Shown: positions 4,246 through 63,857 of the stretch, one piece after another
Layout: each line of letters begins with the position of its first letter
Numbering within the stretch: the stretch's first letter is position 1
Source: Sphyrna mokarran
Taxonomy: Eukaryota
DNA: 64,000 nt
NCBI GenBank assembly: GCA_024679065.1
Contig: JAGIQG010000011.1
Location: forward strand, 74,710,001 to 74,774,000
Reading direction: 5' to 3'
Program-made: the position numbers and the translations under genes
The notes under the pieces: generated by a model
The model's input: only the letters and a program-made list of their open reading frames with translations
Databases searched by the model: none
Told to the model about the DNA's origin: nothing

Positions 4246-4357
4246 GCGGTATGGTGGCACTGTGGTTAGCACTGGTGCCTCACAGTGCCAGAGACCCGAG
4301 TTCAGTTCCTGAGTTGGGTCGCTGTGGAGTTTTCATGTTCTTCCTATGTCTGCATGG
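4246..4357 (+). mobile_element. HE1-type V-SINE, 5' half (split by CR1 insertion)
   Basis: tRNA-like head GGTGGCACTGTGGTTAGCACTG...GAGTTCAGTTCC, then V-core TGTGGAGTTTTCATGTTCTTCCTATGTCTGCATGG. Confidence 0.85.
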
Positions 4358-4789
4358 ACGGGGTGGGGGTGCAGTGCAAGGGTAAGAGAAATTACCACTC
4401 CCAGAGTAAAGGAAAAGGTGCATGTGAAGGTTGAGGATGTGCTGCCGACTAGAATCGCTGTGGGTGGAGATAAAAAATAAGAAGGGAGGAAGATACAGGT
4501 GGGTGTGGTCTCTAGGCCCCCTAATAACAACTTTGAAGTGGGGAGGGCTATAAACAAACAAATAAGAGATGCGTGCAGAAATGGGACAGTGTTAGTAATG
4601 GGTGATTTCAATCTGCACATTGACTGGGCGACACAAGTCGGACACACTGAGCTGGAGGAAGAGTTTTTGGAATGCTGTAGGGATGGGTTCCTTGAATGGT
4701 ATGTTACGGAACCGACGAGAGAGCGTGTTGTCTTAGCCCTAGTACTATGTAATGAGGTAGGTAGAATTAGAGATATTCATGTGGGGGAT

Positions 4790-7015
4790 ACAAAGAACAA
4801 AGAACAACACAGCACGGGAAACAGGCCCTTCAGCCCAACGAGCCCGCGCCGCCATCCTAACGTCTTAATGACATATAGACACCAATATAGGGACAATTTG
4901 TTACCCAATCAGCCTAAGAGCACATTTTTGGGATGTGGGAGGAAACCGGAGCACCCGGAGAAAACCCACGCAACCACGGGGAGAACGCGCAAACTCCCGC
5001 AGACACAGGCCCAAATCCATGTGTCTGCACAGCAACAGCGATAGTCTCTGAGCTGTCATGTTGCCCATCTGATGGTCCAGTTTAAGCATACACTAACGAC
5101 TTGAAGCACTAGGCCACTCCTGAAGTAACCTCTAGGAGCAGCCCTCGCACGACCTGCCGAATGCATGCACCTTGTTGGTCAACAAGGTGGACCGAATAGC
5201 CTGTGGAAACAATTAAAGTATTTAAACAGTCCTCCTATATCCCTCTATCTGCAGACCGCTCATGTGGCTGTCCAAGAGATCCTTAAACAACCCTAGCGTG
5301 CCTGCTCCCACCACCTTACTCGGTAGTGCATTCCACACCCCCACTACCCTTTGTGTGAAAAAATGCCCTCTAATATTAGTCTTATACATAGCCCCCCTCA
5401 CCCTAAGGCCGTGACCCCTCGTTCTATCCGAAGCTAATGGTGGAAAAAGCTTACCACCATTTACTCTATCTATACCCGTCATAATCTTATATACCTCTAA
5501 TAGATCCCCTCTCAGCCGACGTCTTTCAAAGGAAAACAACCCCAGTGCATTCAACCTTTCCTCGTAAGACAGCCCTTCCATACCAGGCAGCATCCTGGTA
5601 AATCTCCTCTGCACTCTCTCCAGGGATTCCACATCCTTCCGGTAGTACGGCGACCAGAACTGGACGCAGTACTCCAAGTGAGGCCTAACCAACGTTCTAT
5701 ACACTTGCAACATCAAACTCCTACTCTTGTATTCTATACCCCTTCCTATGAAGGCTAACATACCATACGCTTTCTTTATCACCTTTTCCACCTGTACTGA
5801 CACCTTCAGAGACTTGTGAACCTGCACCCCCAGGCCTCTCTGCGTCTCTATACTCCGGATAGTTTTACCTTTTATCCTATAACTCCCCTCTACAGTATTC
5901 CGGCCAAAATGCATCACCTCGCATTTATCCGGATTAAATTCCATTTGCCATCTATCTGCCCAATCTACCAGCCTATCTATGTCCTGTTGTATTGCCTGGC
6001 ACTGCTCCTCAGTCCCCGCCAATCCAAGTATCTTAGTGTCATCAGCAAATTTGCTGATCACACCACCTACCCCCTCTTCCAAGTCATTTATATAAATCAC
6101 AAATAGAAGAGGTCCTAGTACTGAGCCCTGTGGCACACCACTAGTGACTGACCTCCAGTTGGAAAAAGAGCCTTCCACTAATACCCGCTGTCTCCTCCTC
6201 CCAAGCCAGTTCTCAACCCATCTACATACCTGGCCCTGTATCCCATGCGCCTTCACCTTTTTTATCAGTCTACCATGGGGAACCTTGTCAAACGCCTTAC
6301 TGAAATCCATGTAGACGACATCAACGGCTTGTCCTTCATCAACCGTTTTTGTCACCTCTTCAAAAAATTCCACTAGATTCGTAAGGCACGACCTCCCCTT
6401 AACGAAGCCATGCTGCGTATCCCTGATCAGATCGCAGCGCTCCAGATGCTCATACATCCTGTCCCTGAGGATCCTCTCCATTAGCTTACCTATAACTGAA
6501 GTCAAGCTCACCGGCCTATAGTTCCCTGGGTTATCCCTCTGACCCTTTTTAAACAACGGTACTACATTTGCAATCCTCCAGTCCTCTGGGACCTCACCTG
6601 TGTCCAAAGAAGAGACAAAGATTTGCGTCAGAGGCCCAGCAATGTCATCCCTCACCTCCCTTAGCAGCCTGGGATAAATACCATCAGGCCCTGGAGCTTT
6701 ATAAGTCTTTATGCTACCTAAAAGCCCCAACACTTCTTCCCTCGTAATGACTATTTCCTTTAACGGGTCCTCAAAATCCTCAAAGCCAGCATCAGATATC
6801 AGGCCCCTCTCCCACGTGAATACCGACGCAAAGTCTTCCTTCAGGATCTCCCCCATCCCCTCAGGCTCTAAGCATAGATCCCCTCCTCTGTCCCTGAGAG
6901 GTCCAATCTTGCCTCTAACCATCCTTTTGCTCCTTACATAGGAGTAAAATGCCTTAGGATTTTCCTTAATCCTACCTGCCAAAGCCATTTCGTGGCCCCT
7001 TTTTGCCTTTCTGAC
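4790..7015 (-). mobile_element. Young 5'-truncated CR1 LINE with a long composite 3' UTR
   Basis: Uninterrupted RT frame, then ~430 nt ending GGGCTGAAGGGCCTGTTTCCCGTGCTGTG(TTGTTCT)n; inserted with a 2-bp AC overlap into the host CR1 endonuclease. Confidence 0.93.
5222..7015 (-). CDS. CR1 ORF2 reverse transcriptase, C-terminal ~597 codons, open but lacking the endonuclease
   Basis: 588-aa track ORF with KAPGPDGI, NYRPVSLTS, QHGF, GVPQGSVLGP, FADDTK, FFTQRVVGVWNALP; frame extends upstream as VRKAKRGHE to the junction. Confidence 0.9.
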   Translation of the reverse strand, partial: VRKAKRGHEMALAGRIKENPKAFYSYVRSKRMVRGKIGPLRDRGGDLCLEPEGMGEILKEDFASVFTWERGLISDAGFEDFEDPLKEIVITREEVLGLLGSIKTYKAPGPDGIYPRLLREVRDDIAGPLTQIFVSSLDTGEVPEDWRIANVVPLFKKGQRDNPGNYRPVSLTSVIGKLMERILRDRMYEHLERCDLIRDTQHGFVKGRSCLTNLVEFFEEVTKTVDEGQAVDVVYMDFSKAFDKVPHGRLIKKVKAHGIQGQVCRWVENWLGRRRQRVLVEGSFSNWRSVTSGVPQGSVLGPLLFVIYINDLEEGVGGVISKFADDTKILGLAGTEEQCQAIQQDIDRLVDWADRWQMEFNPDKCEVMHFGRNTVEGSYRIKGKTIRSIETQRGLGVQVHKSLKVSVQVEKVIKKAYGMLAFIGRGIEYKSRSLMLQVYRTLVRPHLEYCVQFWSPYYRKDVESLERVQRRFTRMLPGMEGLSYEERLNALGLFSFERRRLRGDLLEVYKIMTGIDRVNGGKLFPPLASDRTRGHGLRVRGAMYKTNIRGHFFTQRVVGVWNALPSKVVGAGTLGLFKDLLDSHMSGLQIEGYRRTV

Positions 7016-9282
7016 ACTCTAGGGACAAGTGATCATAGTATGGTAGAATTTATGATGCATTTGGAGGATGAGGTTGTGGAGTCCCAGACCTGAACAGAGT
7101 GGACTATGATAGGATGAGAGAGGAATTGGCGACTGTGGATTGGAGGAGTACGCTGGTTGATAGGACGGCTGAGGAACAGTGGGGGATTTTTAAAGAAATC
7201 TTTCTCGGTACTCAGCCTATATATATTCCGATGGTGAAGAAGGACTGTAGGAGAAGGAAAAATCAGCCGTGGTTCTCAAAGGAAATTAGGGAGAGTATTA
7301 AATCTAAAGCTGAGGCATTCAAAATAGCTAAAAATAGTGGGCGATCGGAGGATTGGGAAAGTTTTAAACAATAGCGGAGAGTGACTAAAAAAGGTTATTA
7401 AAAAAGGAAAGATGGAAAATGAGGCTAAACTAGCTCGAAACATCAAAAAGGACAGTAAGAGTTTTTATAAAAATATAAAGAAAAGGAGGATGGCCAGAGT
7501 TAATGTTGGATCCTTGGAAGATGAGAGGGCTGGTTTAATGGTGGATGACAGGGATATGGCGGAGACCTTGAATAAGTTTTTTGTGTTGGTCTTTATGGAG
7601 GAGGATGTAAATAGCTTGCCCAAACTCAAGGATAGAAGGGTGGTAGGAGATGAGGTCCTTGATGAGATTACAGTCATTAGAGAGGTGGTGCTTAATAGGC
7701 TAATGGAGCTGAGGGTAGATAAATACCCAGGACCGGATGGAATGCATCCCAGGGTCCTCAAAGAAATGGCAGAGGTGATAGTAGATGCCCTGGTAATTAT
7801 CTTTCAAAATTGGCTGGACTCTGGAAAAGTGCCGGAAGATTGGAAAACAGCTAATGTTACGCCGCTGTTTAAGAAGGGTAGCAGACAGAAGGCAGGAAAT
7901 TATAGGCCAGTTAATTTAACATCTGTAGTAGGAAAAATGTTTGAATCTGTAGTCAGCACAAATAATGAGACACCTGGATATGAACGGTTTGATCAGGCAG
8001 TCGCAGCACGGATTCGTTAAGAGGAAGTCGTGCTTGACAAATTTATTGGAGTTCTAAGAGGAAGTGACTAGTGCGGTAGATAGAGGGGAACCGGTGGATA
8101 TGGTGTTTTTGGATTTCCAGAAAGCGTTCGATAAGGTGCCTCACAAAAGATTGCTGCGGAAGGTTAAGGTGCAGGGAGTCGGGGGTAGGGTGTTAGCCTG
8201 GATAGAGGATTGGTTGTCTAATAGAAAGCAGAGAGTAGGTATTAATGGGTGCTATTCTGATTGGCAGCCGGTGACTAGTGGAGTGCCCCAAGGTTCAGTG
8301 CTGGGGCCTCAACTACTTACCATTTACTTAGATAATCTGGAGGAAGGGGCTAAGTGCAGGGTGATGAAATTTGCTGATGACACGAAGATGAGTGGAAAAG
8401 CAAATTGCATGGAGGGTGTGGAAAGCCTGCAGAGGGATCTGGATAGGTTGAGTGAGTGGGCGAGGACCAGCCAGATGGAGTATAATGTTAGCAAGTGTGA
8501 GGTTATCCACTTTGGGAAGAATAATGGTAGGAAGGATTACTATTTAAATGGAGAAAAGCTGCAGCATGCGACAATGCAGAGGGACCTGGGGGTCCTTGTG
8601 CACGAATCGCAAAAACACAGTATGCAGGTGCAGCAGGTGATTAAGAGGGCGAATGCAATATTGGCCTTTATAGCCAGGGGGATAGAATATAAAAGTAGGG
8701 AGGTTCTGTTGCAGCTGTATAGGGTACTGGTGAGGCCGCAGCTGGAGTACTGTGTGCAGTTTTGGTCTCTGCATTCGAGGAAAGATATATTGGCCTTGGA
8801 GGGGCTGCAGGGAAGGTTCACTAGGCTGATATCAGAGATGAGGGCATTGGATTATGAGGAGAGACTGCGTAGGCTAAGTTTGTACTCTTTGGAGTTTAGA
8901 AGGCTGAGAGGGGATCTTATAGAGATGTATAAGATAATGAAGGGGATGGATAGGGTAGAGGTTGAGAGACTCTTCCCGCTTAACAAAGACAGCAGGACTA
9001 GAGGGCACAGCCTCAAGATTAGGGGGGGGGGGAGCGCAATTCAGATCGGAGTTGCAGAGGGTGGTGAATCTTTGGAATTCTCTGCCTGATGAGGTGGTGG
9101 AGGCTTCCTCACTGAATATGTTCAAGTCAAGAGTGGATAGGTTTTTAATTGACAAGGGAATTAAGGGTTATGGGGAGAGAGCGGGAAAGTGGTACTAAAT
9201 CACTACAGATCAGCCATGATCTTATTGAATGGCGGGGCGGGCTTGAGGGGCTGTATGGCCTACTCCTGCTCCTATTTCTTAT

Positions 9283-9466
9283 GTTCCTCCGGTGCTCTGG
9301 TTTCCCCCCATAGTCTGAAAGACCTGCTGCTTAAGTGCATTGGCCATGCTAAATTCTCCCTTCATGAACCTGAACAGGCACTGGACTGTGGCAACAAGTG
9401 GAGTTTCACAGTGACTTCGTGGCAATGTTAATGTAAGCCTATTTGTGGCATTAATAAATAAACTTT
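9283..9466 (+). mobile_element. HE1-type V-SINE, 3' half
   Basis: TTCCTCCGGTGCTCTGGTTTCC...GCATTGGCCATGCTAAATTCTCCC...AATAAATAAACTTT continues the SINE from 4357. Confidence 0.88.
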
Positions 9467-11564: not shown

Positions 11565-11897
11565 TGGTAGTGATGACGTGGAGATGCCGGCATTGGATTG
11601 GGGTAAACACGGTAAGAAGTCTCACAACACCAGATTGACATCCAACAGGTTTATTTGGTAGTAAATCCCTAGTTTTCAGAACACTGTTCCTTTGTCAAGT
11701 GAGTGGCAAGTTCTGATCTCCAACAGGGCATGTAAAGGCGCACACACACCCAGTTAACTGGATGTGCCTTAAATGCCCTGTTTGTATTCAGAACTTTCTG
11801 CTCACCTAACGAAGGAACAGCATTCCAAAAGCTAGTGGTGTTTACTACAAATAAACCTTTTGGACTTTAACCTGGTGTTGCGAAACATCTTATTGTG
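11565..11897. mobile_element. Fold-back (inverted) Penelope-like terminal-repeat insertion with degenerate hammerhead-like cores
   Basis: ~140-bp imperfect inverted arms (~11600-11740 and ~11762-11905); CTAACGAAGGAACAGCATTCCAAAAG from 11806; flanking TTTTAGCCCAGC repeats at 11553-11564 and 11898-11909. Confidence 0.75.
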
Positions 11898-19890: not shown

Positions 19891-20216
19891 TCAATACTTA
19901 AATCCATTTAAGCTCAAGAAAATTATGTGCTATCATAAAAGAACCAAACAGTTAAATACTCATTAAATTGAGTAATGTAATTACTCAAAAAGTAATCAAA
20001 AAGAGGGTAACCATTTGAACCCTCCCACCTTGTTGCAATGATACTTCAGCTCATTTTTTCCTGTTTATCACTCATTTCTACATGAATCACTCCTGATCCA
20101 GGTATTTGTTGAGGAAAACTATTAATATCATAATTATAATGAAAACAATTATACTAATAAAGTTGCCTGCAATACCTCACTTGCCTCCTTCACAAGGTGG
20201 CCTCTCATTCTTAAAA

Positions 20217-20510
20217 TCAACACAGTGGCAAACACTGCTGTTTCACAACACTAGGAACCCCAGTTTAATTCTCAGTTTGAGTCACCCTGTGTGGAGTCTG
20301 CACGTTCTCCCAGTGTTTGTGTGGCTTTCCTGCGGATGCTCCGGTTTCCTCCCACAGTCTGAACGACTGTCTCATTAGGTGCATTGGCTATGCTAAATTC
20401 TGCTTCAATGTACCTGAACAGGTGTTGGAGTGTGGAATTAAAGGATTTTCACAGTAACTTCATTGCAATGTTAATGTAAGCCTACATGTGATACTAATAA
20501 ATTAACTTAC
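20217..20510 (+). mobile_element. HE1-type V-SINE
   Basis: TGTGTGGAGTCTGCACGTTCTCCC...GCTCCGGTTTCCTCCCACAGTC; tail TGTGATACTAATAAATTAACTT. Confidence 0.88.
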
Positions 20511-21810: not shown

Positions 21811-22050
21811 AAGTTTATTTATTAGTCACAAGTAAGGCTTACAATGCAGTTACTGTGAAATTCACCCAATCGCCACAGCCCATCACTTGTTCGGGCCAAC
21901 GCACCTAACCGGCACATCTTTCGGACTGTGGGAGGAAACCCACACAGACACAGGGAGAACGTGCAGACTCCACACAGACCCATGTCAAGAATCGAACCCA
22001 AGTCCCTGGTGCTGTAAGCGGCGGTGCTAACCAATGTGCCACCATGTTGC
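21811..22050 (-). mobile_element. HE1-type V-SINE
   Basis: Reverse complement head GGCAACATGGTGGCACATTGGTTAGCACCG...GGTTCGATTC, V-core, tail GTGACTAATAAATAAACTTT. Confidence 0.9.
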
Positions 22051-22186: not shown

Positions 22187-22465
22187 TAAGTTTATTATTA
22201 ATCAGAAGTAAGGCTTATATGAAAACTATAATGAAATTATTGTGAAATTCCACCAGTCACCACACTCCAGTGCCTGTTCAGGTCAATGCACCTAACCAGC
22301 ACATCTTTCAGACTGAGGGGGGAAACCGGAGCATCCAGAGGAAACCCACGCAGACATGGGGATAACATGCAAACTCCACACAGGCAGTGACCCAAGCTGG
22401 GAATTGAACTGGCATCCCTGCCGCTGTGAGGCAGCAGTGCTAACTGTTGTGCCACCTTTCTGCCC
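22187..22465 (-). mobile_element. HE1-type V-SINE
   Basis: Reverse complement GGTGGCACAACAGTTAGCACTGCTGCCTCACAGCGG..., V-core GGAGTTTGCATGTTATCCCC. Confidence 0.9.
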
Positions 22466-24384: not shown

Positions 24385-25867
24385 TGCAGCCAGGTTTGGC
24401 TTTGATCTTCATGTCGTCGTTAGCTACAGGTATAGTGCCGGAAGACTGGAGGATGGCAAATGTTGTCCCTCTTTTCAAGAAGGGGAGTAGGGACCATCCT
24501 GGAAATTATAGACCGGTGAGCCTGACTTCTGTTGTGGGCAAGGTCTTGGAAAGAATTATAAGGGATAGGATTTATAAGCATCTAGAGAGAAATAAATTGA
24601 TTAGGGATAGTCAGCACGGTTTTGTGAAGGGTAGGTCGTGCCTCACAAACCTTATTGAGTTTTTTGAGGAGGTGACCAAAGAGGTAGATAAGGGTAAGGC
24701 AGTTGATGTAGTGTATATGGATTTTAGCAAAGCGTTTGATAAGGTTCCCCATGGTAGGCTACTGCAGAAAGTGCAGATGCATGGGATTGAAGGTGATTTA
24801 GCAGTTTGGATTAGGAATTGGCTAGCTGATAGAAGACAGAGGGTGGTGGTTGATGGGAAATATTCAACCTGGAGTGCAGTTACAAGTGGTGTATCTCAAG
24901 GATCTGTTTTAGGGCCACTGCTGTTTGTCATTTTTATAAATGACCTAGATGAGGGTGTAGAGGGTTGGATTAGTAAATTTGCTGACGATACCAAAGTGGG
25001 GGGAGTTGTAGACAGCGAGGATGGATGTTACAGTTTGCAGAGGGACATAGATAGGTTGCAGAGCTGGGCCGTGAGGTGGCAAATGGAATTCAATACGGAT
25101 AAGTGTGAGGTGATTCACTTTGGTAGGAATAACAGGCATATGAAATATAGGGCTAATGGAAGGACCCTTAATAGTGTTGTCGAGCAGAGGGATCTTGGGG
25201 TACAAGTACATAGCTCTTTGAAAGTTGGCACCCAGGTTGATAAAGTTGTTAAGAAGGCGTACGGTGTGTTAGCTTTTATTGGTAGAGGGATTGAATTTAG
25301 GAGCCGTGAGGTTATGTTACAACTGTACAAAACTCTGGTGCGGCCGCACTTGGAGTATTGCGTACAGTTCTGGTCACTGCATTATAAGAAAGATGTGGAA
25401 GCATTGGAAAGGGTGCAGAGGAGGTTTACCAGGATGTTGCCGGGTATGGTGGGAAGGCCTTATGAGGAAAGGCTGAGGGACCTGAGGTTATTTTCATTAG
25501 AGAGAAGAAGGTTACGCAGTGACCTAATTGAGGCGTATAGATGATCAAGGGATTGGATAGGGTGGATAGTGAGAGCCTTTTTCCTCGGATGGTGATGACC
25601 AACACGAGGGGACATAACTTTAAATTAAGGGGTGGTAGTTATAGGATGGATGTCAGAGGCAGGTTCTTCACACAGAGGGTGGTGAGGGCGTGGAATGCCC
25701 TGCCTGCAGCAGTTGTGGACTCACCTACTTTGGGGGCATTCAAATGTTCAGTGGATAGGCATATGGATGATATTGGAATAGTTTAGGTTAGAGGGTCCAC
25801 TGGCCGGCGCAACATCGAGGGCCGAAGGGCCTGTACTGCGCTGTAATGTTCTATGTTCTATGTTCTA
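24385..25867 (+). mobile_element. Young 5'-truncated CR1/HER1-like LINE (RT to 3' end)
   Basis: 386-aa and 81-aa ORFs joined by one frameshift near 25541; full RT motif set; tail GGCCGAAGGGCCTGTACTGCGCTGTA(ATGTTCT)3. Confidence 0.96.
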
Positions 25868-30548: not shown

Positions 30549-31935
30549 CATAGAGATTTACAGCATGGAAATAGGCCCATTGGCCAACTTATCCATGCTG
30601 CCCTTTTTTTAAGCCCCTTAGCCAGTCCCAATTGCCCGCATTTGGTCCATATCGCACTATATCCATTGCGCCCATTTAACTATTAAAATGCTTTTTGAAA
30701 GACAAAATTGTACCCGCCACTACTACTACTTCTGGCAGCTTGTTCCAGATACTCACCATCTTCTGTGTGAAAAAATTGCCTCTCTGAACAATTTTGTGTG
30801 TCTCCACTCTCACCTTGAACCTTTGCCCTCTAGTTTTAGACTCCCCTACCTTTGGGAAAAGATATTGACTATCTAGCTGATCTGTGCCTCTCATTATTTT
30901 ATAGGCCTCCATAAGATCACCCCTCAGTCTCCAATGCTCCAGAGAAAAAAGTCTCAGTTTATCCAGCCTCTCCTTATAACCCAAACCATCAAGTCTCTGT
31001 AGCATCCTAGTAAACCTTTTTTATATTCTTTTTAGTTTAATAATATCCTTCCTATAATAGGATGACTAGAACTGCACACAATATTCTAAGTGTAGCCTTA
31101 CCAATATCTTGTACAATGACAATATCATGTCCCGACTCCTGTATTCAATGTTCTGACCGACAAAACCAAACATGCTGAATGTCTACTTCACCACTCTGTC
31201 CACCTGTGATTCCACTTTCAAGGAGCTATGAACATGTACCCTTAGATCTCTTTGTCCTGTAACTCTCCCCAGTGCCCTACCATTAATTGAGTAAATCCTG
31301 CCCTGGTTCAATCTACCAAAATGTATCATTTTGCATTCGTCGAAATTAAACTCCATTTGCCATTCATCAGTTCACTGGCCCAATTGATCAAGATGCCATT
31401 GCAATTGCAGATACCTTTCTTCACTGTCCACTATGCCACCAATCTTGGTGTCACTTGCAAACTGACTAACCACACCTCCGACATTATCATTCCAATCATT
31501 AATATAAATGACAAGTAACAGTGGACCCAGCACTGATCACTGTGGCACACCACTGGTCACAGGCCTCCAGTTTGGAAAAACAACCCTCTACAACCACCCT
31601 CTGGTTTCTATTCAGGATGTAGAGATGCCGGCGTTGGACTGGGGTAAACTCAGTAAAGTTTCACAACACCAATTTTAAATCCAACCAATTTATTCATCAA
31701 ATAAATTGGTTGGATTTAAAATTGGTGTTGTGAAACTTTACTGAGTTCTATTCAGAAGCCAATTTTGTATCCATTTAAATACCTCACCCTGGATCCTGTG
31801 AGATTTAACCTTGTGGTACCTTGTCAAAAGCCCGGCTAAAGTCCACATAGACATCATCAGCTGCACTGCCCTTATCTATCTTCATGGTTAGCCCTTTAAA
31901 ACAAAACCTCAATCAAATTTGAGAGACATGATTTC
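30549..31935 (-). mobile_element. CR1 LINE, degenerate RT to 3' end, with internal hairpin insertion
   Basis: ORF LGYKERLDKLRLFSLEHWRLRGDL...NFFTQKMVSIWNKLP; upstream GVPQ/VLGP and DFSRAFDKVPQ remnants. Confidence 0.9.
31616..31745. mobile_element. 130-bp fold-back Penelope-terminus insertion with perfect 48-bp inverted repeat
   Basis: Arms 31647-31694 and 31700-31747, loop CATCA; TTCTATTCAG duplicated at 31606-31615 and 31746-31755; terminus GATGTAGAGATGCCGGCGTTGGACTGGGGTAAAC shared with 11575 and the reverse complement of 52240-52276. Confidence 0.85.
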
Positions 31936-32563: not shown

Positions 32564-32640
32564 TACAAACAAAGAACAACGCACACGGCACGGGAAACAG
32601 GCCCTTCGGCCCAACAAGCCTGCGCCGCCACCTCAACGTT
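32564..32640 (-). mobile_element. Very short CR1-type 3' tail, related to the end of 4790-7015
   Basis: CAAAGAACAACGCACACGGCACGGGAAACAGGCCCTTCGGCCCAACAAGCCTGCGCCGCCA closely matches 4791-4855. Confidence 0.75.
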
Positions 32641-32893
32641 CCCACTTCCACCCATGACCCTTGTCTATGAACCTCCAATCCTAACAGATTTGTTTGATGT
32701 TTAGAATGGAAGATATAATAAGCAACTCTCCAAATCAGCCAGGTAGTATTTCCGTGAACTTGAATAGAAGTGTTTCCCGATTTGCTGCAGGCCTGCATGT
32801 TTGTAGAGGGCAATACTCCTCACTCACAATTCGTGCAATGTGGCATGTTATCATCTAGCCAGCCATCAAATCGATGCGGAACACATCGCCATT

Positions 32894-33170
32894 TGCACGA
32901 TGGCACAGTGGTTAGCACCACTGCTTCACCGAGCCAGAGACAAGGATTCAATTCCCAGCTTGGATCACTGTCTGTGTGGAATTTATATATTCTCCCCGTT
33001 CTGCAGGGTTTCCTCCAGGGGCTCTGGTTTGCTCTCAGTGCTGATTAGAAACATTGGCTATGCTGAATTCTCCCTCAGTATAACCAGACAGGCACCGGAG
33101 TGTGGCAAAGGGCTTTTCACGGTAATTTTATTGCAGTGTTAATGTGGACACAATTAAATTTTTAAACTTT
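32894..33170 (+). mobile_element. HE1-type V-SINE
   Basis: GCACGATGGCACAGTGGTTAGCAC...GGATTCAATTCCCAGCTTGG...GGCTATGCTGAATTCTCCCTCAG. Confidence 0.85.
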
Positions 33171-34969: not shown

Positions 34970-35252
34970 CAAGTTTATTTATTAGTATCAGAAGTAGTCT
35001 TACATTAACATTGCAATGAAGTTACCGTGAAAATCCCTAAATTGCCACACTCGGGCACCTGTTCAGATACACAGAGAATTTAGCAATGGCCAATGCACCT
35101 AACCAGCACTCCTTTTGGGTTGTGGGAAGAAACAAGAGCATGGAGAAATCCCACTGACATGGGAAGGATGTGCAAATTCCAGTGACCCAAGCCAGGAATT
35201 GAACCGGGGTCCTGATACTGAGGGGTAGCAGTGCTAATCATCATGCCACCCT
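34970..35252 (-). mobile_element. HE1-type V-SINE
   Basis: AAGTTTATTTATTAG tail reverse complement; GGCCAATGCACCTAACCAGCAC; GGAATTGAACCGGGGTCC. Confidence 0.85.
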
Positions 35253-36897
35253 TTGTACCATGGATTTTGAATCTATTCTGTTCTGTGTTGAAACAGTTTC
35301 CAATATGTTGTACTTTATTTTATGCTTATTTATCAACTTTCACTATCAATATCTCACTAATATGTACACTGAACTTATTTGTTTAATTCCAATGTACAAA
35401 TGCGATACTTAACACATTTCTGTACACGTTTTCATGAATCACCACCTCAGAAAACAATTAAAAGATTTACTCTATTTACCATTTCTTGCAATTCCACATC
35501 CTTTATTACAAACAGCTCAGCATAGTCACACAACATCAGCTCTATACAGTAAAATTTGACACCTCATTAATAAGCAAATCCAGCAGACATCTTAAACATG
35601 TTGAATGGCAAAATGCTGTGAATTCTGGAAACCTGAAATTAGAAACTGAAAATTTTGGTGACAGTGAATCAGGAAATATTTTATGAAGAAACAGCGTTAC
35701 TGGGCTGAAATGTCCCTTAGAGAGCAGCAGGATTGGGCACGAGTTGTAAGTTGTGTCAATCTCTTCATTGTGGGCAAGGCTGGTGACATGGCTGCCTCAT
35801 TTTTAGTCCATGGCATTCATGTGAGCAGCATGTGATGGCCTTATAACCATATGTATTTGAAGTAAGAGAAGCCAATATTTATGATGGAGCAACCACTTGA
35901 ATATGATCGAGTCCATCCTGGACATGCACGTTGAAGAGAACCATAGGGCTCAGTGCTAGCTCCAAACTTGTACAAGTAAATATAGCCAACAATCATCCTA
36001 CAACTTCATTTGTGCTCCACCCATCTACACTCTAGACCAAATCCTTAATTAAAACATTACAAACTTGCTGGACTATTGGAACACATGGTGTCTCATGTTG
36101 AATCCCTCTGAAACCATATCCAGTATATTCCACCTCCACAGAGTCAGTGCCAAAAGAGAATTGCACTTTTACATGGATGGACAGAGACTAATATATAATC
36201 TAACCTAACATAATTGGGAATCAGATTAAATAAGACACTGTTGTTCCAAAAATGTGAAGAATAAAGAAACAAAGGTCAAAAGCAGAAACAATCTACTAAC
36301 CAAGTTATGTTATCGACATGGGGCACTGCTGCCACCACTGTCTGGGTCTCAGCACTTGTCCTATCATATGCTGCAGCAAAATATGGTGCACCCACAAGCT
36401 GGTTGAACCATCCAAGCTGCATCTCACTTACCGTTCAATGATGACTTGTTGAAACCTCCTATTGCCCACCTCTGTCTCAGCACCCAATAGAACATAGGGC
36501 ATTCAGCACTCTTCCTCAGCAAGATCATCCGCTAATATCTTTGGGTTAAGGAAGAGGAATACGGGAAGTCACTAACAATTTTATTAGTTGTTTTATCAAT
36601 AGTTTTGGAGCACAGATCTTCAGTACCATTGCTGGAATTTTGCAAGGGCCCAAAATCTTTGCAGTATCCAGTGACTTCTGCTATTTCTTGATAATGGGGA
36701 GTGAATCAAGTTGTCTGAAGATTGGTGACTCTGGGGACCTCAAGAAGAGGTCACGTGGATCATTCACCCAACATTTCTGGCTAAGGACCTTCCCATCCAT
36801 AAAGACCTTCAAGAACTTCCAGTTCGCCAGTGATTGTACAAAAAAAACCCCCTTTGGACACAAGTCAAACATCTTCAACTCCATAACTCTGAAAGGA

Positions 36898-37352
36898 GGA
36901 AACCTGGTACACAGAGCTTTGCGTTTTCGGTTAGTTTGCTGTTGGGCCATACTCGACTTGGGCTTGCGGTCATGGCAATCCTGATGTTTCCTGCGTCAAA
37001 GGACACGATGTTGGCAATTGTTGATCCAATGTATGTGAAGCCATCAATGGCTTATAGAATCAAATTGATAAAGGGTTAAGACTGTATGCCATGGCCCACA
37101 ACTTTGGTTTCCCTTATGCTAATTGTCAGTCCAAATCCCTCACAGGAGAACTGGCCCACATGCTGTTGCAAGTGGATTTCAGTCTCAGCAGCAATTCACG
37201 AACTAGGACATTACGCACTTTGGTCTTGGCATGTAGTCTTGCCAAGCTGAACAGCTTGCTGTCAGCTCTGGCTTACAGGTGGGACCTTTATTAGAGTTAC
37301 CAAAAGTGTACAATAGCAGCAGGGAAAAAAAAACATGCCAGAGAGCTGGCTT
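36898..37352 (-). repeat. Inverted duplicate of 39633-40073 (decayed RTE RT segment)
   Basis: Reverse complement aligns over ~450 bp, e.g. CTCTAATAAAGGTCCCACCTGTAAGCCAGAGCTGACAGCAAGCTGTTCAGCTTGGCAAGACTAC is identical in both. Confidence 0.92.
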
Positions 37353-37379: not shown

Positions 37380-40300
37380 GTTGCCTCCAACCCAATTTCT
37401 CAACAACCAGGTTTCAAGCTCCCCTGAAACATGTGGACAGCTCTCAATCCAATATAGACTGAACATGGCTGGAATGTGACAAACTGGCCTTATGATCTTC
37501 CTCAGGTTAATGATGCAGATAAGGAGCTTTGGTCAACAAAAACTTAGAAGATTCAGTGTGGACTTTGCTGCACTACGGGAAACTAGGCTTGCTCAAAGTA
37601 GAAACATTGCATGTTCTTCTACCTTGAGAGGCAACATGTCAACGTGGAGTGGGTTTACAGGAAAAAAATTATACTTGCAATGATTGAACACTCTTGGCAC
37701 CACCACCCTCCCTGCCATGACAGAAAGCTCAGATAGGACATTTTGCACTTATTCTGTCAACAAATATTGTCTCAGTTAACTTCATGTGCATCTATGCTAA
37801 TACTTGCTTCCATCTCAGATGTCAAGGGTCAATTCTAAGAGACACAATGCTGCCGTCAGCAGAATTCTCGGAACAAAGAGCCTTATCAGGCACATCCACA
37901 CTGAGGTGGGGTATTTAACACACAGCTTGGCCAATGCGTGTACAGCAACAAGGATCCAAGAAGATAAAAGAAAATGGACAATTTCCCGGAGATATGCCAT
38001 AATCGGGAACCCTAGTGACATGAACAGCTCCTTCCAAACTAAGCCATTCCACATGGTTATTTGGAAATGTCTGTGGTCGTGCCACTGGCACCAATTAAAT
38101 CTCATCAATACCAAACGTACCAGCCTCAACTGCATCCTTATCACTAGTAACTCTGTATTACCTAGTATACAGCAAAGCAGGCTTTTAGCTAAGGAAAATA
38201 TACCACTCCAAAAGTAAGATCATCCTTGGTGCATCACTGACCCAGGAAGGACCCAAATGTTCCTGAACCACCTCAATCAGGCTTTTACAGACAACCCAAG
38301 ACCAGAATGTGGTGTCAGAGTGGGATTATCTGCTCAATACCATCCAGAAATCTGCACCCACTACCTGAGGGAGAAGAGATTAGAGGAATATTAACTGGTT
38401 TGAGGCTTATTAGACTGAAATAGAACCTAGCTCCTGCAACCAAGTGCCCCTACGCAAGCAAGAACCAGCAAATAGAATCTAGATCCCCTCAGAGTTACCA
38501 GAATTGAAACCTAGAAAACTGCTTGGCAATGTGATAATCAATACCAGTTATAAATCTGCAACAACGTAATCAGGGTATGCTAGAGTGATGTGTGAGAGAA
38601 TCATAAGTCAGAGATGAGGAGAAATTTCTTCAGCCAGAGTGGTAGATCTGTGGAATTCTTTGCCACAGAAGGCTGTGGAGGACTGGTTATTGAGTGCCTT
38701 TAAGACAGAGATAGATAGGTTCTTGATTGATAAGGGGATCAGAGGTTTTGGAGAAAAGGCAGGAGAATGGCGATGAAAAAAATACCAGCCATGATTGAAT
38801 GGCAGAGCAGACTTGATGGGCCGAGTGGCCTAATTCTACTCCTATGCCTTATGGTCTCTAAGAAAGCAACAGGCCTAACAGTAACAAAATCAGTCCCCTT
38901 GAAGACAACAGTGAGGCTATTCGCTGAACATTGTAAACAGATGAAAAGGTGGCTGCAGCACTATCTTGCACTCTATCCAACGGAGAATGTTATTGTAGAA
39001 GCTCTCAGTGACATCCTAGTCTTTTCTGGACAGTGAGTCCAGCACAGTAGATCTCAACAAGTTCAATGGCCAGTGTGGCAAATGGTAAAACCCAGGAAAT
39101 GATGACATTCTACCTGAAATCATTAGAAGTGGAAAACCGGCATAGGTGCAGTATCTCTGTGAAAGTTTGTGTCTCTGCTGGTCGAGAAAGATCTGCGCTT
39201 CAAGACATGGGTGCAAGAAATATAATCATTTTTGTACAAAATCTAAAAAAATCACAGTGACTGCAACAAATACCTTGTGAATTATTGTGGGCAAGGTCCT
39301 CTTCCTCTGACCAGATTGCAAGCCCTGGCATCAAGCTTCTACCCTGCGTTTCTTTGCAGATTTAAAAGCTGGCGGATTGACAGCTGACGTGATTTTTCTC
39401 ACCTTGGCAGTTACAACAGAAATTCTGTGAATGGCGCAGATCACTCCTCACCAAGGCCTTCAGCCTTGTCAGCAGAGACTTACTCTTTGAACTGCTGTGG
39501 AAAATATTTAGCTTGTTGGACTCCTGAGCAGCACTCGATCTTTCACTGAGAACATTCAAGTTTGTCAGTTACAGCTGATCATCAGTAGAGGCTTGAGATC
39601 AGCAGCAGGGTAAAAGAGAGGACAGCGTTCTGAAGTCAGCTCTCTGGCATGTTTTTCATCCCTGCTGCTATTGTACGCTTTTGGTGACTCTAATAAAGGT
39701 CCCACCTGTAAGCCAGAGCTGACAGCAAGCTGTTCAGCTTGGCAAGACTACGTGCCAAGACCAAAGTGCGTAATGTCCTAGCTCATGAATTGCTGTTGAG
39801 ACTGAAATCCACTTGCAACAGCATGTGGGCCTGTTCTCCTGGGCCTGCGATGGATTTGGACTGACAATCAGCATCAGGGTAACCAAAGTGGTGGGCCATG
39901 AATTACAGTCTCAACCCTTTATCAATCTGGCTCTATAAGCCATCGGTAGCTTCACGGACCTTGGATCAACCATTGCCAACGCGCCCTTTGACGCAGGAAA
40001 CACCGCGATCACCACAGCTGCAAGCCCAACAGCAAACTAACTGAAAATGCAAAGCTCAGTGTGTACCAGGTTTGTATTCTCAGTGGCGTTCTTCACAGTA
40101 GTGAGGCAAGGGCAACTTGCAGTAGCTTAGAAAAGCACCTGAACAGATCCCATCTCCACTGCGTCAGGTGAATATTGCAGAAGTTTTGACAGGACAAAAT
40201 ATGTTGAGTGTGCAGGGAAACCCAGCATAAATTTTCCTCGAGTCAGTTATTCCAACGTTTGGGTCACATGAACCAAATGGAAAGTGGCTGCTTTCTCAAT

Positions 40301-43800: not shown

Positions 43801-43922
43801 AAATATTGTTCTGCACCCTATTCTTTCGTTCTCTCATGTACTTTCTAAATTTTGCCTTACAGCATGCAAGAAACAATATTTTTCACTGTATCTCAGCACG
43901 TGACAATAATAAATCAAATCAA
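40810..43922 (+). mobile_element. Rex1/Babar-clade LINE, decayed, most of ORF plus 3' end
   Basis: RLKQCG..LLPSILLAGVQSLENKLDEL, ILTAIYILPH, GKSDH, LNDY...IMKCFEKL, LDPLQF, FKFLGIQI, LYFLKRLRKFG; end GTGACAATAATAAATCAAATC. Confidence 0.88.
42172..42635 (-). mobile_element. Young CR1 3' fragment inserted in Rex1/Babar
   Basis: LDYEERLNRLGLYSLEFRRLRGDL...FFTQRVVNLWNSLPDEVVEAS; closely matches 8848-9285. Confidence 0.93.
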
Positions 43923-44889: not shown

Positions 44890-45815
44890 GGCAACCCCTC
44901 TTTCCCAGCACTTGGTCCATAGCCTTGTATGTTTTGGCATTACAAGTGCACACCTAAATATATTTAAATGTTATGAGGATCTCTGCCTCCACCACCCTTT
45001 CAGGCAGTTAATTCAAGATTCCCTTCATTCTTTGGGTGAAATGGTTTTTCCTCATGTTCCCTCTAAACCTATGCCACCATTGATCATCATTGTTCCCTCT
45101 ACCAAGGGGAAAAGTTTCTTCCTGTCGAATCTATCAGTGCCCCTCATAATTTCATAACCTCAATCACATTCCTTCTCACTCTTCTCTGCTCCAGGGAAAA
45201 AAGTCCAGCCTATCCAATCTCTCTTCATAACTAAAACTTTTTTGCCCAAGCAACATCCTGATAATTGTCCTCTTCACTCTTTCCAGTGCTATCGCATTCC
45301 CCCTATAATGTGGATCCCAGAACTGCATACAATACTCTAACTGTGGCCTAACTGACAGTTTATACAATTCCAGCATAACGTCCCTCTACTTAAACTCTAT
45401 GCCTCAACTAATAAAGAAAGTATACCATAAGCCCTCTTAATCACTTTATCCACTTATCCTGCTACCTTAAGTGACTGGTGTACATACACACCAAGATGCT
45501 TCTAATCCTCTGCACTTCCCAGTGTAGTGCTGTTCATCATGCATTCTCTTGCCTTGCATGTTTTGCCCCAGTGTATCACTTTTACGTTTATCTGGATTGA
45601 ATTCCATTTGCCACTGATCAACCCATCCTATTAACCCATCTATTTTCTCATGTAATCTAAGGCTATCCTCCTCACTATTTACCACCCAGCTAATTTTTGT
45701 TTAATCTGTGAATTTACTGATCAACCTTCCAACATTCAAGTTTAAAGTAATTTTTTTATAAACCATGAACAGTGAGAGCCCCAACACTGATTCCTGACAG
45801 ATCCCACTAGACAGT
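44890..45815 (-). mobile_element. CR1 fragment, degenerate
   Basis: GICQESVLG, LISKFTD, WQMEFNPDK, LYKLSVRPQLEYCMQFW. Confidence 0.85.
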
Positions 45816-47124: not shown

Positions 47125-47840
47125 AAACTGACTTTAAAGGGATCCGGGTGTGCAAATCCACAAATTGTTAAAGGTGGCAGCATAGGTGGAAAAGGGTGGT
47201 GAACACAGCATATGACATGCTTGGCTTTATTGGATGGGGCAAACAGTATAGGAGTTGGCATGTGATGCTGCAGTTATATAGAATGTTGGTTAGGCCACAT
47301 TTGGAATACTGCATCTAGTTCTGGTTGCCACATTACCAGAAGGACGTGGAGGCTTTGGAGAGAGTGCAGAAAAGGTTTACCAGGATGTTGCCTGATATGG
47401 AGAGTATTAGCTATGAGATGAGGTTGAGTAAACTAGGATTGTTCTCCTTGGAAAGACAGAGGCTGAGCGGCAACCTAATAGAAGTTTATAAAATTATGAA
47501 GGGCATAAATAGGGTGAACAGTTGGAAGCATTTTCCTAGGTTAGAAATGACAAACACAAGGGGTCACAAGTTCAAGATGGGGGGGGGGGGCGCGCGGAGG
47601 TTCAGTACAGATATATGGGGACTTTTGTTTTTTTTAAACACAGAGGGTGATGGGGCCCAGAATATATTACCAAGCAAGGTGGTTGAGGCAGACATACTAG
47701 CTTATTTATCTAGACAGCCACATGAACAGACTGGGAATATAGAGAGATACAAATGGATGGTCTACTTAAGAACACATGATTGGTGCAGATCTGGAGGGCC
47801 AAAGGGCCTGTTTCTGTGCTCTATCGTTTTTTGTTCTTTG
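47125..47840 (+). mobile_element. CR1 3' fragment with short 3' UTR
   Basis: PHYQKDVEALERVQKRFTRMLP...LPSKVVEA; tail GGGCCAAAGGGCCTGTTTCTGTGCTCTATCGTTTTTTGTTCTTTG. Confidence 0.9.
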
Positions 47841-48123: not shown

Positions 48124-49280
48124 TTGATTTGATTTATTGTCACATGTATTAGCATAGAGTGAAAAGTATTGTTTCTTGCACGCTATGCAGGCAAAACATA
48201 CCATTCATCGAGAAGGAGAGAGTGCAGAATGTAGTGTTATAGTCATAGCTAGGGTGTAGAGAAAGATCAATTAAATGCAAGGTAGCTCCATTTAAAGGTC
48301 TGATGGCAGCAGGGAAGAAGCTTTCTTGAATCGGTTGGTATGTGATCTCAGACTTTAATATCTTTTTGCCTGATGGAAGATGGAAAAGAGAATGTCTGGG
48401 ATGCATGGAGTCCTTAAGCATGCTGGCTGCTTTGCCAAGGCAGCAGGAAGTGTGGACAAAGTCAATGGATGGGAGACTGGTTTGCTTGATGGATTGGGCT
48501 ACATTCATGACCTTTTATAGTTCCTTGCAGTGTTGGGCAGAACAGAAGCCATACCAAGCTGTGATACAACCAGAAAGAATGCTTTTTATGGTCCATCCAT
48601 AAAAGTTGGTGAGAGTTGTAGCTGACATGCCAAATTTTCTTAGTCTTCTGAGAAAGTAGAGGCATTTGTGGCTTTCTTAACTATAGTATCGGCATGGGGG
48701 GACCAGGACAGGTTGTTAGCTATCTGGACACCTAAAAACTTGAAGCTCTTGATCATTTCTACTTCTGCACCATTGATATAGACAGGGACATTTTCTCCAC
48801 TAACTTCCTGATATTGATGACAATCTCCTTTGTTTTCTCGACATTGAGGGAACACAGTCTTGTGGGCACTGATGTTGAGGATGGTTGTGGAGGAGATGCT
48901 GTGGCCTATCATTACTGATTGTGGTCTGTGGATTAGGAAGTTCACTACCCAGTTGTCAAGGGAGGAGCCGAGGCTCAGGCCAGGGAGTTTGGAAATGGGT
49001 ATTGTAGAAATAATGATGTTGAAGCCTGAGCTAAAGTCAATAATTAAGAGTCTGAGATAGGTATCTTAGTCAACTAGGAGTTCCAGGATTGAGTGCAGAG
49101 CTGGGAGACGGTGTCTGCTGTGGACCTGTTGCAACTATAAGCAAACTGTAGTGGATCCAGGCAGTCCGGAAGGCTGGAATTGATTTGTGCCATGGCTAGC
49201 CTTTTGAAGCACTTAATGTTTGTGAATGTCAGAGCCACTAGATGATAGTTAATAAGGCACGCTGCTTGGCTTTTCTTTGT
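48124..49280 (-). mobile_element. Rex1/Babar-clade LINE, 3' portion
   Basis: LPDCLDPLQFAYSCNRST, FKFLGVQIANNLSW, SFFPAAIR; end reverse complement GTGACAATAAATCAAATCAA. Confidence 0.88.
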
Positions 49281-50157
49281 AACATCCCTACTGAACAAAA
49301 ATCTATCAATCTCCATTTTAAAATTTCAATCGATGTAGCTGTTACAGAGTGTTATTATAAGTACCTTCTTATTTAAATGCATTTGCTGATGTCTGTAATT
49401 TTTGCATGCATGGGCAGGGTCATGTCATCAGTAGCATGTATTTTTCAGGTTTAGTCTTCTATGAGGAACTGCTCACAGTTCTGTGTTCTTGTTTCAATGT
49501 CTCTTCATATACAAAGCAGTTTGAATGTTACGTTTGTGGCTGAGGTTACCACGCCCACCTCAAGAGTTCTTTTTTTGGGAGCAAGTTCCAGAATTTCATT
49601 ATCTTTTATGCAAAGAGGCAGAGATCAGAGACAGTGACAGAAAATGTTGAAAAAGCAGATCAAGTCGAGGAAGAAAGAAAACAGCTGCTGACTTTTAACA
49701 GAACAATTCTGAGAAAGCCCCAAGCAGAGTGTAAACATATGCTGCAGTTTCCTGCAAGATACTTCTTTTGGACAGCAATTTCTCTTTAAATAAGATACAA
49801 ATACTTAAGCTTTTACTGGTGCCTATAGTATGGGTGGAATCGTACAGCACTTCTCGCTTCTCCATCTACCCCCTCCCCACTTCATTGGTGACATCCCACC
49901 CTTTCCCCAAGATTAATGCCAACATCTGTCTCCTATCTTCACAAATATTCCACCCCATACTGGCATACTCTCTCTTCCTCCCCACCTCCATAATCATTTG
50001 CTGGCATAACCCTCACCCCCACCCCATCAGGCTAGCACCCATCATCTCCACTACTCCCATGTCCACTTACCCCACCATAAATGAGTTGCATCAGTGCCAA
50101 CTTGTGCTAGGGACATTGCCTGCTCATGTCCCTCTCCTGGGTGGGGTGGTGGGGAAG

Positions 50158-50748
50158 CTGGTTTGCTTGATGGATTGGGCTACATTCATGACCTTTTATA
50201 GTTCCTTGCAGTGTTGGGCAGAACAGAAGCCATACCAAGCTGTGATACAACCAGAAAGAATGCTTTTATGGTCCATCCATAAAAGTTGGTGAGAGTTGTA
50301 GCTAACATGCCAAATTTTCTTAGTCTTCTGAGAAAGTAAAGGCATTTGTGGCTTTCTTAACTATAGTATCGGCATGGGGGGACCAGGACAGGTTGTTAGC
50401 TATCTGGACACCTAAAAACTTGAAGCTCTTGATCATTTCTACTTCTGCACCATTGATATAGACAGGGACATTTTCTCCACTAACTTCCTGATATTGATGA
50501 CAATCTCCTTTGTTTTCTCGACATTGAGGGAACACAGTCTTGTGGGCACTAATGTTGAGGATGGTTGTGGAGGAGATGCTGTGGCCTATCATTACTGATT
50601 GTGGTCTGTGGATTAGGAAGTTCACTACCCAGTTGTCAAGGGAGGAGCCGAGGCTCAGGCCAGGGAGTTTGGAAATGGGTATTGTAGAAATAATGATGTT
50701 GAAGCCTGAGCTAAAGTCAATAATTAAGAGTCTGAGATAGGTATCTTA
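50158..50748 (-). repeat. Near-identical direct duplicate of 48477-49068
   Basis: About 4 differences seen by eye in ~592 bp; same internal deletions; track ORF MWALMLRMVVEEMLW... occurs twice. Confidence 0.95.
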
Positions 50749-59880: not shown

Positions 59881-60212
59881 GAGGTTTGATAAGGTATTCA
59901 AGATGAGTTTCGAACTGTGCAGACCAAGGAGATGTTTGCAGGGGAATCTAAAAAATAAGGTAGTTAGTAAATCGGTAGGAAATAGCTGGAAAATCTTCTT
60001 TATCAGAGTATGATTAGAACATGGAACTCAGTACTACAAGGATTAATTGAGGCAAATAGCTCAGATGCATCTAAGCGGAGGCCAGATAAATACATGAGGG
60101 AGAAGATTATGTTGAAAGGGTTTGATGGAAACTTGTGGTGCATGGATCAGTATCAAGGGAATAGGGGTTAGATGGTGAGTGTTTGGCGGATGCTTGAGTG
60201 TGCAGTAACAAG

Positions 60213-62790: not shown

Positions 62791-63857
62791 TAAAATTTAC
62801 ATCAAATAAATTTTCCTTTTGTTGGGGAAGTAAACAAGATGTTTTTGTTTTACATCTCCACTGCTGATTCATCTGCAACTTTACAGGGCTTGAATGATGG
62901 TAATTGTAATATTGTAATTGCTGCCGAGGAACAGGTGTCAGATTGAAAATCTAGTCTGGCTGAGAAGTTGGAAGCTTTTGAACTCATCAGATTCTATGTG
63001 GGAAAGTATCTAAATATGTTAATGCTACACTGTTTACATATTACATTACATAGAAGTTACACAAAAAACAGTCCATTTGTTTCCTCTGCTGATGCTTATG
63101 CTCCACGTGAGTTCCCTCCTATTCTTAACCTGACCTCATCAGTAAGCCATTTGCCTCAAATGCACCATGTAGTAGGGAAGTTATATTCAATGCAACTCTC
63201 TGAGTAAAGAAATTTCCCCTAAATTTCTTTTTGGATTTATTATTGACTGTCTTATATTTATTACTTAGTTTCAGACACACCCACATCAAAAGATTATTCT
63301 TTATATTTCCACATGCAACCTGGACAATCTTGGCCTTAGTGTCAAGATGTTATCTAGAACTCTAGAACCTGTAGGCCGTCCTAACTCATTAACAATTTCA
63401 ATTCGCACAAAACATGATTTACTTTTCAATCTGATACTACAATGGTTCTTCCCCTGTTTAACACAAGCCCTAATTAAGACAGATTTGTTAATAACAAAGG
63501 TTATCTGCAACATTCCTATTCATGAAGACGATAAATGAATATCACTCAATTCAATATATCACTTGCTTGTTTAAATTAAAGCTAGTGCAAACAAATGTAA
63601 GAACTTTGATTACCTGGTAACACAGCCCAGAGTAAACATTGTATTTTGGACCAATTGCCATACAAAACAAGTCTACCTAGTTGATTTAAAAGCTTATTTA
63701 CTGCATTTCATAACAATGCGGAAATGCACAATAAACTAATTTCTGCCAGAAATCGCATTGAGCATCATATTTTCTTCTCCCACAACAGATTTTCCATAAA
63801 TAGGGGTTAGAAAGAAAAACAGGTGCTATTACACAAATGTACATAAGTTGTGTCAGC

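What the first reader, a model, noticed from the sequence alone, without database searches (positions are those of the whole stretch)
4790..5221. CR1 LINE that appears to carry a captured V-SINE as an integral part of its 3' UTR
Seen: read on the LINE sense (minus) strand, the RT stop at 5222 is followed by ~150 nt of unique sequence. Next comes a heavily altered tRNA-like head (GGCAACATGACAGCTCAGAGACTATCGCTGTTGCTGTGCAG, no intact B box). Then a clean V-SINE core (GGAGTTTGCGCGTTCTCCCCGTGG...GCTCCGGTTTCCTCCCACA), then a single CR1-type tail. The 2.2 kb unit sits between two adjacent codons of the host CR1 (VGD|TLGTSDH), so it appears to have inserted as one piece. A related CR1 at 47125-47840 has only ~80 nt between the ORF end and a similar tail. 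Established: HE1 SINEs share their tail with the CR1-clade HER1 LINE, and SINEs normally borrow tails from LINEs. Inference: here the flow is reversed. A LINE lineage absorbed a SINE, lost its Pol III promoter and uses its tail for reverse transcription. The intact ORF next to an eroded SINE head suggests an old capture in a recently active family.
Basis: partly seen in the sequence, partly recalled or inferred. Interest (0 to 1): 0.75.

Follow-up and report, generated by a model that had tools for sequence, protein, structure and literature searches.

The report
CR1 retrotransposon carrying a SINE core
A young jumping gene carries, behind its intact enzyme gene, the worn promoter but well-kept core of a short parasitic element, which suggests an old capture running opposite to the usual direction, although only one copy could be examined.

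Summary
The anatomy is confirmed. A 5'-truncated CR1 (minus strand, 4790-7015) has an intact ORF2 end, a 156-nt spacer, a SINE-derived segment (5064-4894, E 8e-16 to the window's free SINEs) and one CR1 tail. It sits cleanly in an older CR1, with no inner target duplication. The head is 25/43 identical to the free-SINE consensus with no usable A or B box; the core is 53/60 (p 0.0008), while free copies decay evenly. The intact ORF caps this copy's own decay at about 2-6%, so the head diverged before insertion. The UTR is CpG-rich and partly structured. This fits an old capture in an active lineage that kept the core and lost the promoter. Not shown: that it is a family. No second copy exists in the window and no source genome could be searched. 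Whether the tail came from the SINE or is the LINE's own cannot be told. The labels V-SINE/HE1 and shark are recalled, not tested against reference sequences. SINE-to-LINE flow has some precedent; existing shark CR1 consensus 3' ends could not be seen. Verdict: new variant of a known kind, family status about 65% likely.

The parts
5222..7015 (-). 3' part of CR1 ORF2 (RT and C-terminal region), 5'-truncated, no stops or frameshifts, native stop at 5224-5222
   Evidence: 70% identity to P0081 over 594 aa in one frame, 0 stops
5066..5221 (-). 156-nt spacer of unknown origin; folds on the LINE sense strand; perfect hairpin at 5168-5189
5007..5065 (-). degenerate tRNA-like SINE head, A box eroded, B-box region partly deleted, replaced by a 9-bp hairpin at 4999-5028
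4934..5006 (-). conserved SINE central domain (V core by recall), 53 of 60 aligned positions match the free-SINE consensus, CpGs retained
4890..4933 (-). post-core SINE segment, 27 of 36 aligned positions match
4863..4889 (-). short linker of unknown origin
   Evidence: covered by neither profile
4790..4862 (-). single CR1-type tail: stem-loop and 7-nt terminal repeats
4346..4789 (+). host CR1, left part (endonuclease region)
7016..9284 (+). host CR1, right part, with at least 6 stops and several frame changes, own tail near 9210-9284
4247..4345 (+). 5' half of a free SINE split by the host CR1
9284..9465 (+). 3' half of the same free SINE
32568..32650 (-). separate short fragment with the closest tail (56 of 65 nt) but a different upstream segment

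Best explanation
This is a recent, 5'-truncated copy of a CR1 lineage whose master carries a SINE-derived module in its 3' UTR. Shown: order of parts, one insertion, intact ORF, unequal divergence of head and core. From established knowledge: ORF2 of stringent LINEs binds the 3' stem-loop and reverse-transcribes from the terminal repeats at a nicked target, so this copy was made tail, core, head, spacer, ORF and stopped at 7015. Inferred: long ago a tRNA-headed SINE joined the 3' end of a master copy in sense orientation (insertion into the UTR, or read-through into a neighbouring SINE), and one of the two homologous tails was lost by priming at or recombination through the shared tail. The internal Pol III promoter was then useless to a Pol II transcript and eroded over many rounds of retrotransposition, while the core was kept, most likely because it helps the RNA (stability, localisation or RT loading).
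For: ORF intact: 95% upper bound on this copy's decay 6.0% (substitutions only), 2.5% or 1.6% with indels, my model, against 42% head divergence. Head 25/43 vs core 53/60, Fisher p 0.00085; free copies 234/299 vs 288/365, p 0.85; head worse than free heads, p 0.007. UTR holds 19 CpG, more than any of 1219 other 432-nt windows (max 15); core 6 CpG vs 0-3 in six free copies. No native tail after the stop and no target duplication around the SINE part. All 13 other CR1 ends that span ORF end and tail in one hit lack an insert (9 of them built the profile). Stop is native. Spacer folds on the sense strand, z -4.4, antisense -0.16; 2 of the 16 perfect hairpins of 9 bp or more in 64 kb lie in this 432-nt UTR.
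Against: Only one copy seen: none in the window, none in GTDB contigs, plasmids or phages, or predicted proteins; these collections hold little vertebrate DNA, so the blanks say little. The unbiased CpG site test is not significant: 3 of 6 vs 7 of 36, p 0.13; the 5 of 5 vs 7 of 28 count was defined from the element's own sites. Head and post-core are CpG-poor (1 and 0) and 10% of 156-nt windows reach the spacer's CpG ratio. Core conservation alone is not significantly better than in free copies, p 0.11. The spacer fold depends on the window chosen (-1.2 to -3.4 when shifted) and 3 of 29 sense windows in the ORF fold as well. The reference consensus comes from a SINE family with another tail, so a donor with a different head would inflate the head divergence.
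Confidence: 0.65

Rival explanations
1. One-off or low-copy chimera: a young CR1 RNA was joined during reverse transcription (template switch), or by read-through from a single master locus, to a separate unit made of spacer, altered head, core and tail.
For: Single copy seen. The closest tail in the window (32568-32650, 56 of 65 nt) is CpG-rich and sits behind a different upstream segment, so this tail type travels in other arrangements; its upstream part may resemble the post-core region, p 0.054. Single LINE-LINE chimeras are described (PMC6036668).
Against: The junction would have to fall in the few bases between the native stop and the native tail (about 15 nt in the sister CR1 at 47.8 kb). 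A jump to the 3' end of a LINE RNA should bring that RNA's tail along, and none follows the stop. An old genomic SINE picked up by read-through should show even decay and CpG loss, which the core does not.
Confidence: 0.22
2. Sequential insertion in place: the LINE with a long native UTR inserted first, and a SINE later inserted into its UTR (or the reverse) and decayed there.
For: Nesting is common here: SINE, host CR1 and this element are stacked three deep. CR1-driven insertions often lack target duplications (2 nt at most for this element), so their absence is weak.
Against: A SINE inserted after this copy would be younger than 2-6% divergence and would need a working promoter; both boxes are broken. 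Only one tail is present.
Confidence: 0.06
3. Opposite direction: the core is native LINE UTR sequence from which the SINE body arose (the LINE-UTR origin proposed for other SINE bodies in PMC5786205).
For: PMC5786205 proposes LINE UTRs as the source of SINE bodies and notes no LINE source is known for conserved bodies.
Against: A tRNA-like head homologous to the SINE head lies directly upstream of the core; 13 of 13 other complete CR1 ends lack the segment; V-SINEs occur from vertebrates to cnidarians (PMC4824008), far wider than this lineage.
Confidence: 0.04
4. Assembly artefact joining repeat pieces.
For: Repeat-dense region.
Against: Host reading frame resumes without loss across the 2.2-kb insert, and so does the outer SINE.
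Confidence: 0.03

Closest known systems
CR1-clade LINEs of elasmobranchs (HER1 and the consensus sets of PMC13343379)
   Same: APE-type ORF2 with RT, C-terminus matching related proteins, stem-loop tail with short terminal repeats, 5' truncation, near-blunt insertion.
   Different: 3' UTR is 432 nt with about 330 extra nt including a SINE head and core; other window copies have short UTRs. The 3' ends of published consensus sequences could not be seen (cells cut at 400 characters).
V-SINEs, HE1 of sharks and rays (partner HER1; table in PMC3747384; 80-bp domain, PMC4824008)
   Same: tRNA-like head, conserved central domain, CR1-type tail in that order.
   Different: No working A or B box, not a free unit, fused behind an ORF. 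No HE1 reference sequence was available; the label is recalled.
LINEs holding SINE or tRNA-like pieces: Ingi-3_AC and RTE-1_DAn (PMC5786205); BovB with fused SINEs (recalled from Walsh et al. 2013, paper not held)
   Same: Sequence flow from a SINE or tRNA into an autonomous LINE.
   Different: Other clades; the Ingi case is in the 5' UTR and only suggested. None seen that keeps a V domain in the 3' UTR while losing the promoter.
Single chimeric insertions such as the L1-BovB element of cattle (PMC6036668) and U6-L1-type chimeras (recalled)
   Same: Two retroelement parts in one locus.
   Different: Those are single events with both parts young; here the SINE head is far older than the ORF and the LINE has no tail of its own after the stop.

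Membership tests
CR1-clade LINE | ORF2 with non-LTR RT closest to CR1 proteins | tested here: met
   RVT_1 E 5e-36; best hits are CR1-type RTs, up to 65% over the last 119 aa and 86% over the last 79 aa. No clade tree was built.
CR1-clade LINE | 3' stem-loop and short terminal repeats, no poly(A) | tested here: met
   5-bp stem shared by 12 tails given, no two-sided compensatory change; terminal 7-nt repeats
CR1-clade LINE | endonuclease domain and 5' region | not testable with these tools
   copy is truncated at 7015
V-SINE (HE1 type) | conserved ~80-bp central domain | tested here: inconclusive
   53 of 60 match to the core of the window's free SINEs; identity of that core with the published V domain is recalled, no reference sequence in session
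V-SINE (HE1 type) | tRNA-derived head | tested here: met
   homology to free heads, 0 of 5000 shuffles; ARAGORN and Rfam find no tRNA, as expected for a SINE head
V-SINE (HE1 type) | intact A and B boxes | tested here: not met
   3 mismatches each; 13 consensus positions missing in the B-box region
V-SINE (HE1 type) | free-standing insertion with its own ends | tested here: not met
   no target duplication around the SINE part; longest shared word 6 nt
LINE family with captured SINE | many copies with the same colinear junctions | not testable with these tools
   no vertebrate genome collection; 0 further copies in 64 kb
LINE family with captured SINE | SINE part diverged before this insertion | tested here: met
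   42% head divergence vs 2-6% bound from the intact ORF
LINE family with captured SINE | tail derived from the SINE rather than the LINE | tested here: inconclusive
   56 of 65 nt to a fragment of unknown type, 36-47 of 65 to nine LINE tails

The most novel reading that the evidence does not exclude
An autonomous CR1 family captured a V-SINE, shed its Pol III promoter and has kept the V core under selection as a working part of its own RNA, showing that the core acts after transcription and independently of Pol III.
Probability: 0.4. Interest if true: 0.72.

Novelty: new variant of a known kind. Interest (0 to 1): 0.5.

Why it matters
The function of conserved SINE central domains is unknown; proposals include transcription, RNA stability and host regulation (PMC4824008). 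A Repbase-wide SINE-versus-LINE comparison reported no LINE sequence similar to conserved SINE bodies (PMC5786205). An autonomous LINE that keeps the core after losing the promoter would separate these proposals and give a one-plasmid assay: delete the core and measure retrotransposition. It would also mean that repeat annotation splits one element into LINE plus SINE and miscounts both. If the junction is single-copy it is an ordinary chimera of little interest.

Tried and rejected
Looking for further copies: core-plus-tail pattern in GTDB contigs, 0 matches; ORF2 C-terminal query there, 48 candidates, none confirmed; plasmids and phages, no match; junction-spanning reading frames against protein sets, no candidate and one 38% hit with 6 repeated stretches, judged chance and not examined. 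Spacer as a known RNA: no Rfam match at E up to 10 (the 3 weak hits lie outside it). Spacer as a second Pol III head: A-like and B-like words with 1 mismatch each lie only 10 nt apart, rejected. Spacer as CR1 coding sequence: best tblastn E 0.03, rejected. Spacer as an inverted tail: profile hit at 5180-5203, E 6.1, not significant. 32.6-kb fragment as a second family member: linker differs and tail is only 86% identical. Background fold scan stopped at 43,801 of 64,000 (292 windows; 4 at z -4 or lower, 2 of them in this element's ORF). Literature: eight answered searches before the last two and those two showed no listing on a CR1 with a V-SINE in its 3' UTR; Ogiwara 2002 and Walsh 2013 are not held; Repbase and Dfam could not be queried.

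Full report
Setting. The window is repeat-dense vertebrate DNA with many CR1-type LINE fragments and a tRNA-headed SINE family.

Observation. On the minus strand an ORF runs from 7018 to the stop at 5222, 598 codons, with RVT_1 at E 5e-36. A full-length relative, P0081, aligns over 594 aa at 70% in one frame with no stop, whereas the host CR1 on the plus strand shows at least 6 stops and several frame changes. The stop is native: of 5 short proteins found among 6 candidates, the best (P0122, 86% over the last 79 aa) ends at the same column with a nearly identical C-terminus. The host frame reads VGD up to 4789 and TLGTSDH from 7016; AC at 4790-4791 and 7016-7017 is either a 2-nt duplication or microhomology with the tail repeat. 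So 2.2 kb entered without loss of host sequence. The host CR1 itself splits a free SINE inside its core (4247-4345 and 9284-9465), giving the age order free SINE, host CR1, this element.

The 3' UTR. A profile of 9 CR1 3' ends from the window gives 27 hits at E up to 10. Thirteen others run from ORF end into tail in one piece (9 are the training copies); this element is split into 5407-5232 and 4860-4793, with 371 nt where the profile has 42. Three further hits cover an ORF end only and were not followed up. A profile of 7 free SINE copies gives 9 hits, one being 5064-4894 at E 8.4e-16. The head is homologous beyond chance (30 of 52; 0 of 5000 shuffles; 8 of 2412 zones, all SINE heads) but has 3 mismatches to each promoter box (recalled consensus), against 0-2 and 0-1 in free copies, and lacks 13 consensus positions around the B box. 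No target duplication flanks the SINE part. The complete free SINEs end in a different, AT-rich tail, so the donor family is not clearly present in the window.

Timing. Under a simple mutation model of mine the intact 1791-nt ORF bounds this copy's decay at 6.0% with substitutions only, 2.5% or 1.6% with indels at 5% or 10% of substitutions. The head differs from the free consensus at 18 of 43 positions and the core at 7 of 60 (p 0.00085); free copies, each compared with the consensus of the others, decay evenly (234/299 and 288/365; p 0.85). So the head diverged before this insertion, and not by even decay. Caveat: a donor family with another head would give part of this signal; the core alone is not significantly better kept than in free copies (p 0.11).

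Passive decay or active lineage. The UTR has 19 CpG, more than any of 1219 other 432-nt windows (max 15; ratio 0.68, reached by 1.0%). The core has 6 CpG against 0-3 in six free copies. At sites defined from the element it keeps 5 of 5 against 7 of 28 (biased); at sites defined from free copies alone 3 of 6 against 7 of 36, p 0.13. Head and post-core are CpG-poor. The UTR folds at z -3.8 and the spacer at -4.7, -4.4 sense versus -0.16 antisense, with 9 G-U pairs among 45; 2 of 16 perfect short-loop hairpins in the window lie here. Against over-reading: shifted windows give -1.2 to -3.4, and 3 of 29 sense windows in the ORF fold as strongly. The spacer therefore looks like the rest of this LINE's RNA rather than like flank, which is moderate support. 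It matches no Rfam family.

The tail. It forms the 5-bp stem shared by the 12 tails aligned, without two-sided compensatory change. It matches a short fragment at 32568-32650 at 56 of 65 nt and nine LINE tails at 36-47 of 65. That fragment has a different upstream segment, with a borderline likeness to the post-core region (p 0.054). The CR1 at 47125-47840 has the closest ORF end of 7 compared (69%) and a whole UTR of about 78 nt. Since SINE tails derive from partner LINEs, the data cannot say whose tail survived.

Mechanism. Established: ORF2 of stringent LINEs recognises the cognate 3' stem-loop (PMC4176376, abstract and outline only). Inferred: a sense-oriented SINE joined a master's 3' end, one of two homologous tails was lost, the Pol III promoter eroded during continued retrotransposition, and the core was retained, probably for an RNA-level role. 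I put this at 0.65. A one-off chimera (0.22) must land in the few bases between native stop and native tail and explain the missing LINE tail. In-place sequential insertion (0.06) conflicts with the timing. LINE-to-SINE origin of the core (0.04) conflicts with the tRNA-like head.

Copy number is the open point. No second copy is in the window.

Known cases. PMC5786205 (parts 1-4 of 5 read) compared all Repbase SINEs with LINEs, says no sequence similar to conserved SINE bodies has been found, and mentions a tRNA-like piece in RTE-1_DAn and possible Ceph-SINE recombination into the 5' UTR of Ingi-3_AC. PMC4824008 (passages and section 13) describes the 80-bp V domain and its unknown function. 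PMC3747384 (passages) lists HE1 with HER1. PMC13343379 (passages, supplement part 1 and two searches) holds many shark CR1 consensus sequences, but only their first 400 characters were visible, so the 0 motif hits there say nothing and this family may already be in that table. PMC6036668 (passages) reports a single L1-BovB chimera. PMC11481361, PMC13295347 and PMC8620236 (passages) gave SINE module shuffling but no LINE capture. BovB carrying fused SINEs is recalled only. Ten searches (listings only) showed no report of this arrangement; subscription papers, Repbase and Dfam were out of reach.

Verdict. Real, well-formed and older than the copy that carries it; probably a CR1 family with a captured SINE module; family status and novelty unproven. 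New variant of a known kind, interest 0.5.

Noticed in passing
window 4247-9465: Three-level nesting: a free SINE split inside its core by the host CR1, which is split by this element.
   Followed up: yes
window 32568-32650 (-): CpG-rich fragment with the same tail subtype but a different upstream segment; SINE or LINE origin unresolved.
   Followed up: partly
window 20216-20508, 21811-22050, 22188-22463, 32895-33168, 34971-35254: Free SINE family with the same head and core but an AT-rich tail unlike the CR1 tails; its partner LINE was not sought.
   Followed up: no
window 24396-25860 (+): Another fairly young CR1: 382 codons without a stop, 73% aa identity to the element, differences mostly at third positions (216 of 359).
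   Followed up: partly
window 5240-5389, 5990-6139, 6290-6439 (-): Three ORF2 windows fold at z below -4.6 on the sense strand.
   Followed up: no
window 31647-31747: Perfect 48-bp inverted repeat with a 5-nt loop.
   Followed up: no
window 48466-48883 and 50147-50563; 37010-37332 and 39652-39980: A 97-99% direct duplication 1.68 kb apart, and an 85-95% inverted pair about 2.3 kb apart that may be transposon ends.
   Followed up: no
window 11701-11850: Strong fold on both strands (z -6.2 and -4.9 with 20 shuffles), probably an inverted repeat.
   Followed up: no
protein P0081: A full-length CR1 ORF2, 70% identical to the element, is filed under a bacterium (Carnobacterium maltaromaticum), probably host contamination of that assembly.
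   Followed up: no
window 44961-45056, 59990-60105, 63150-63223: CR1 ORF-end matches with no tail in the same hit; what follows them was not examined.
   Followed up: no
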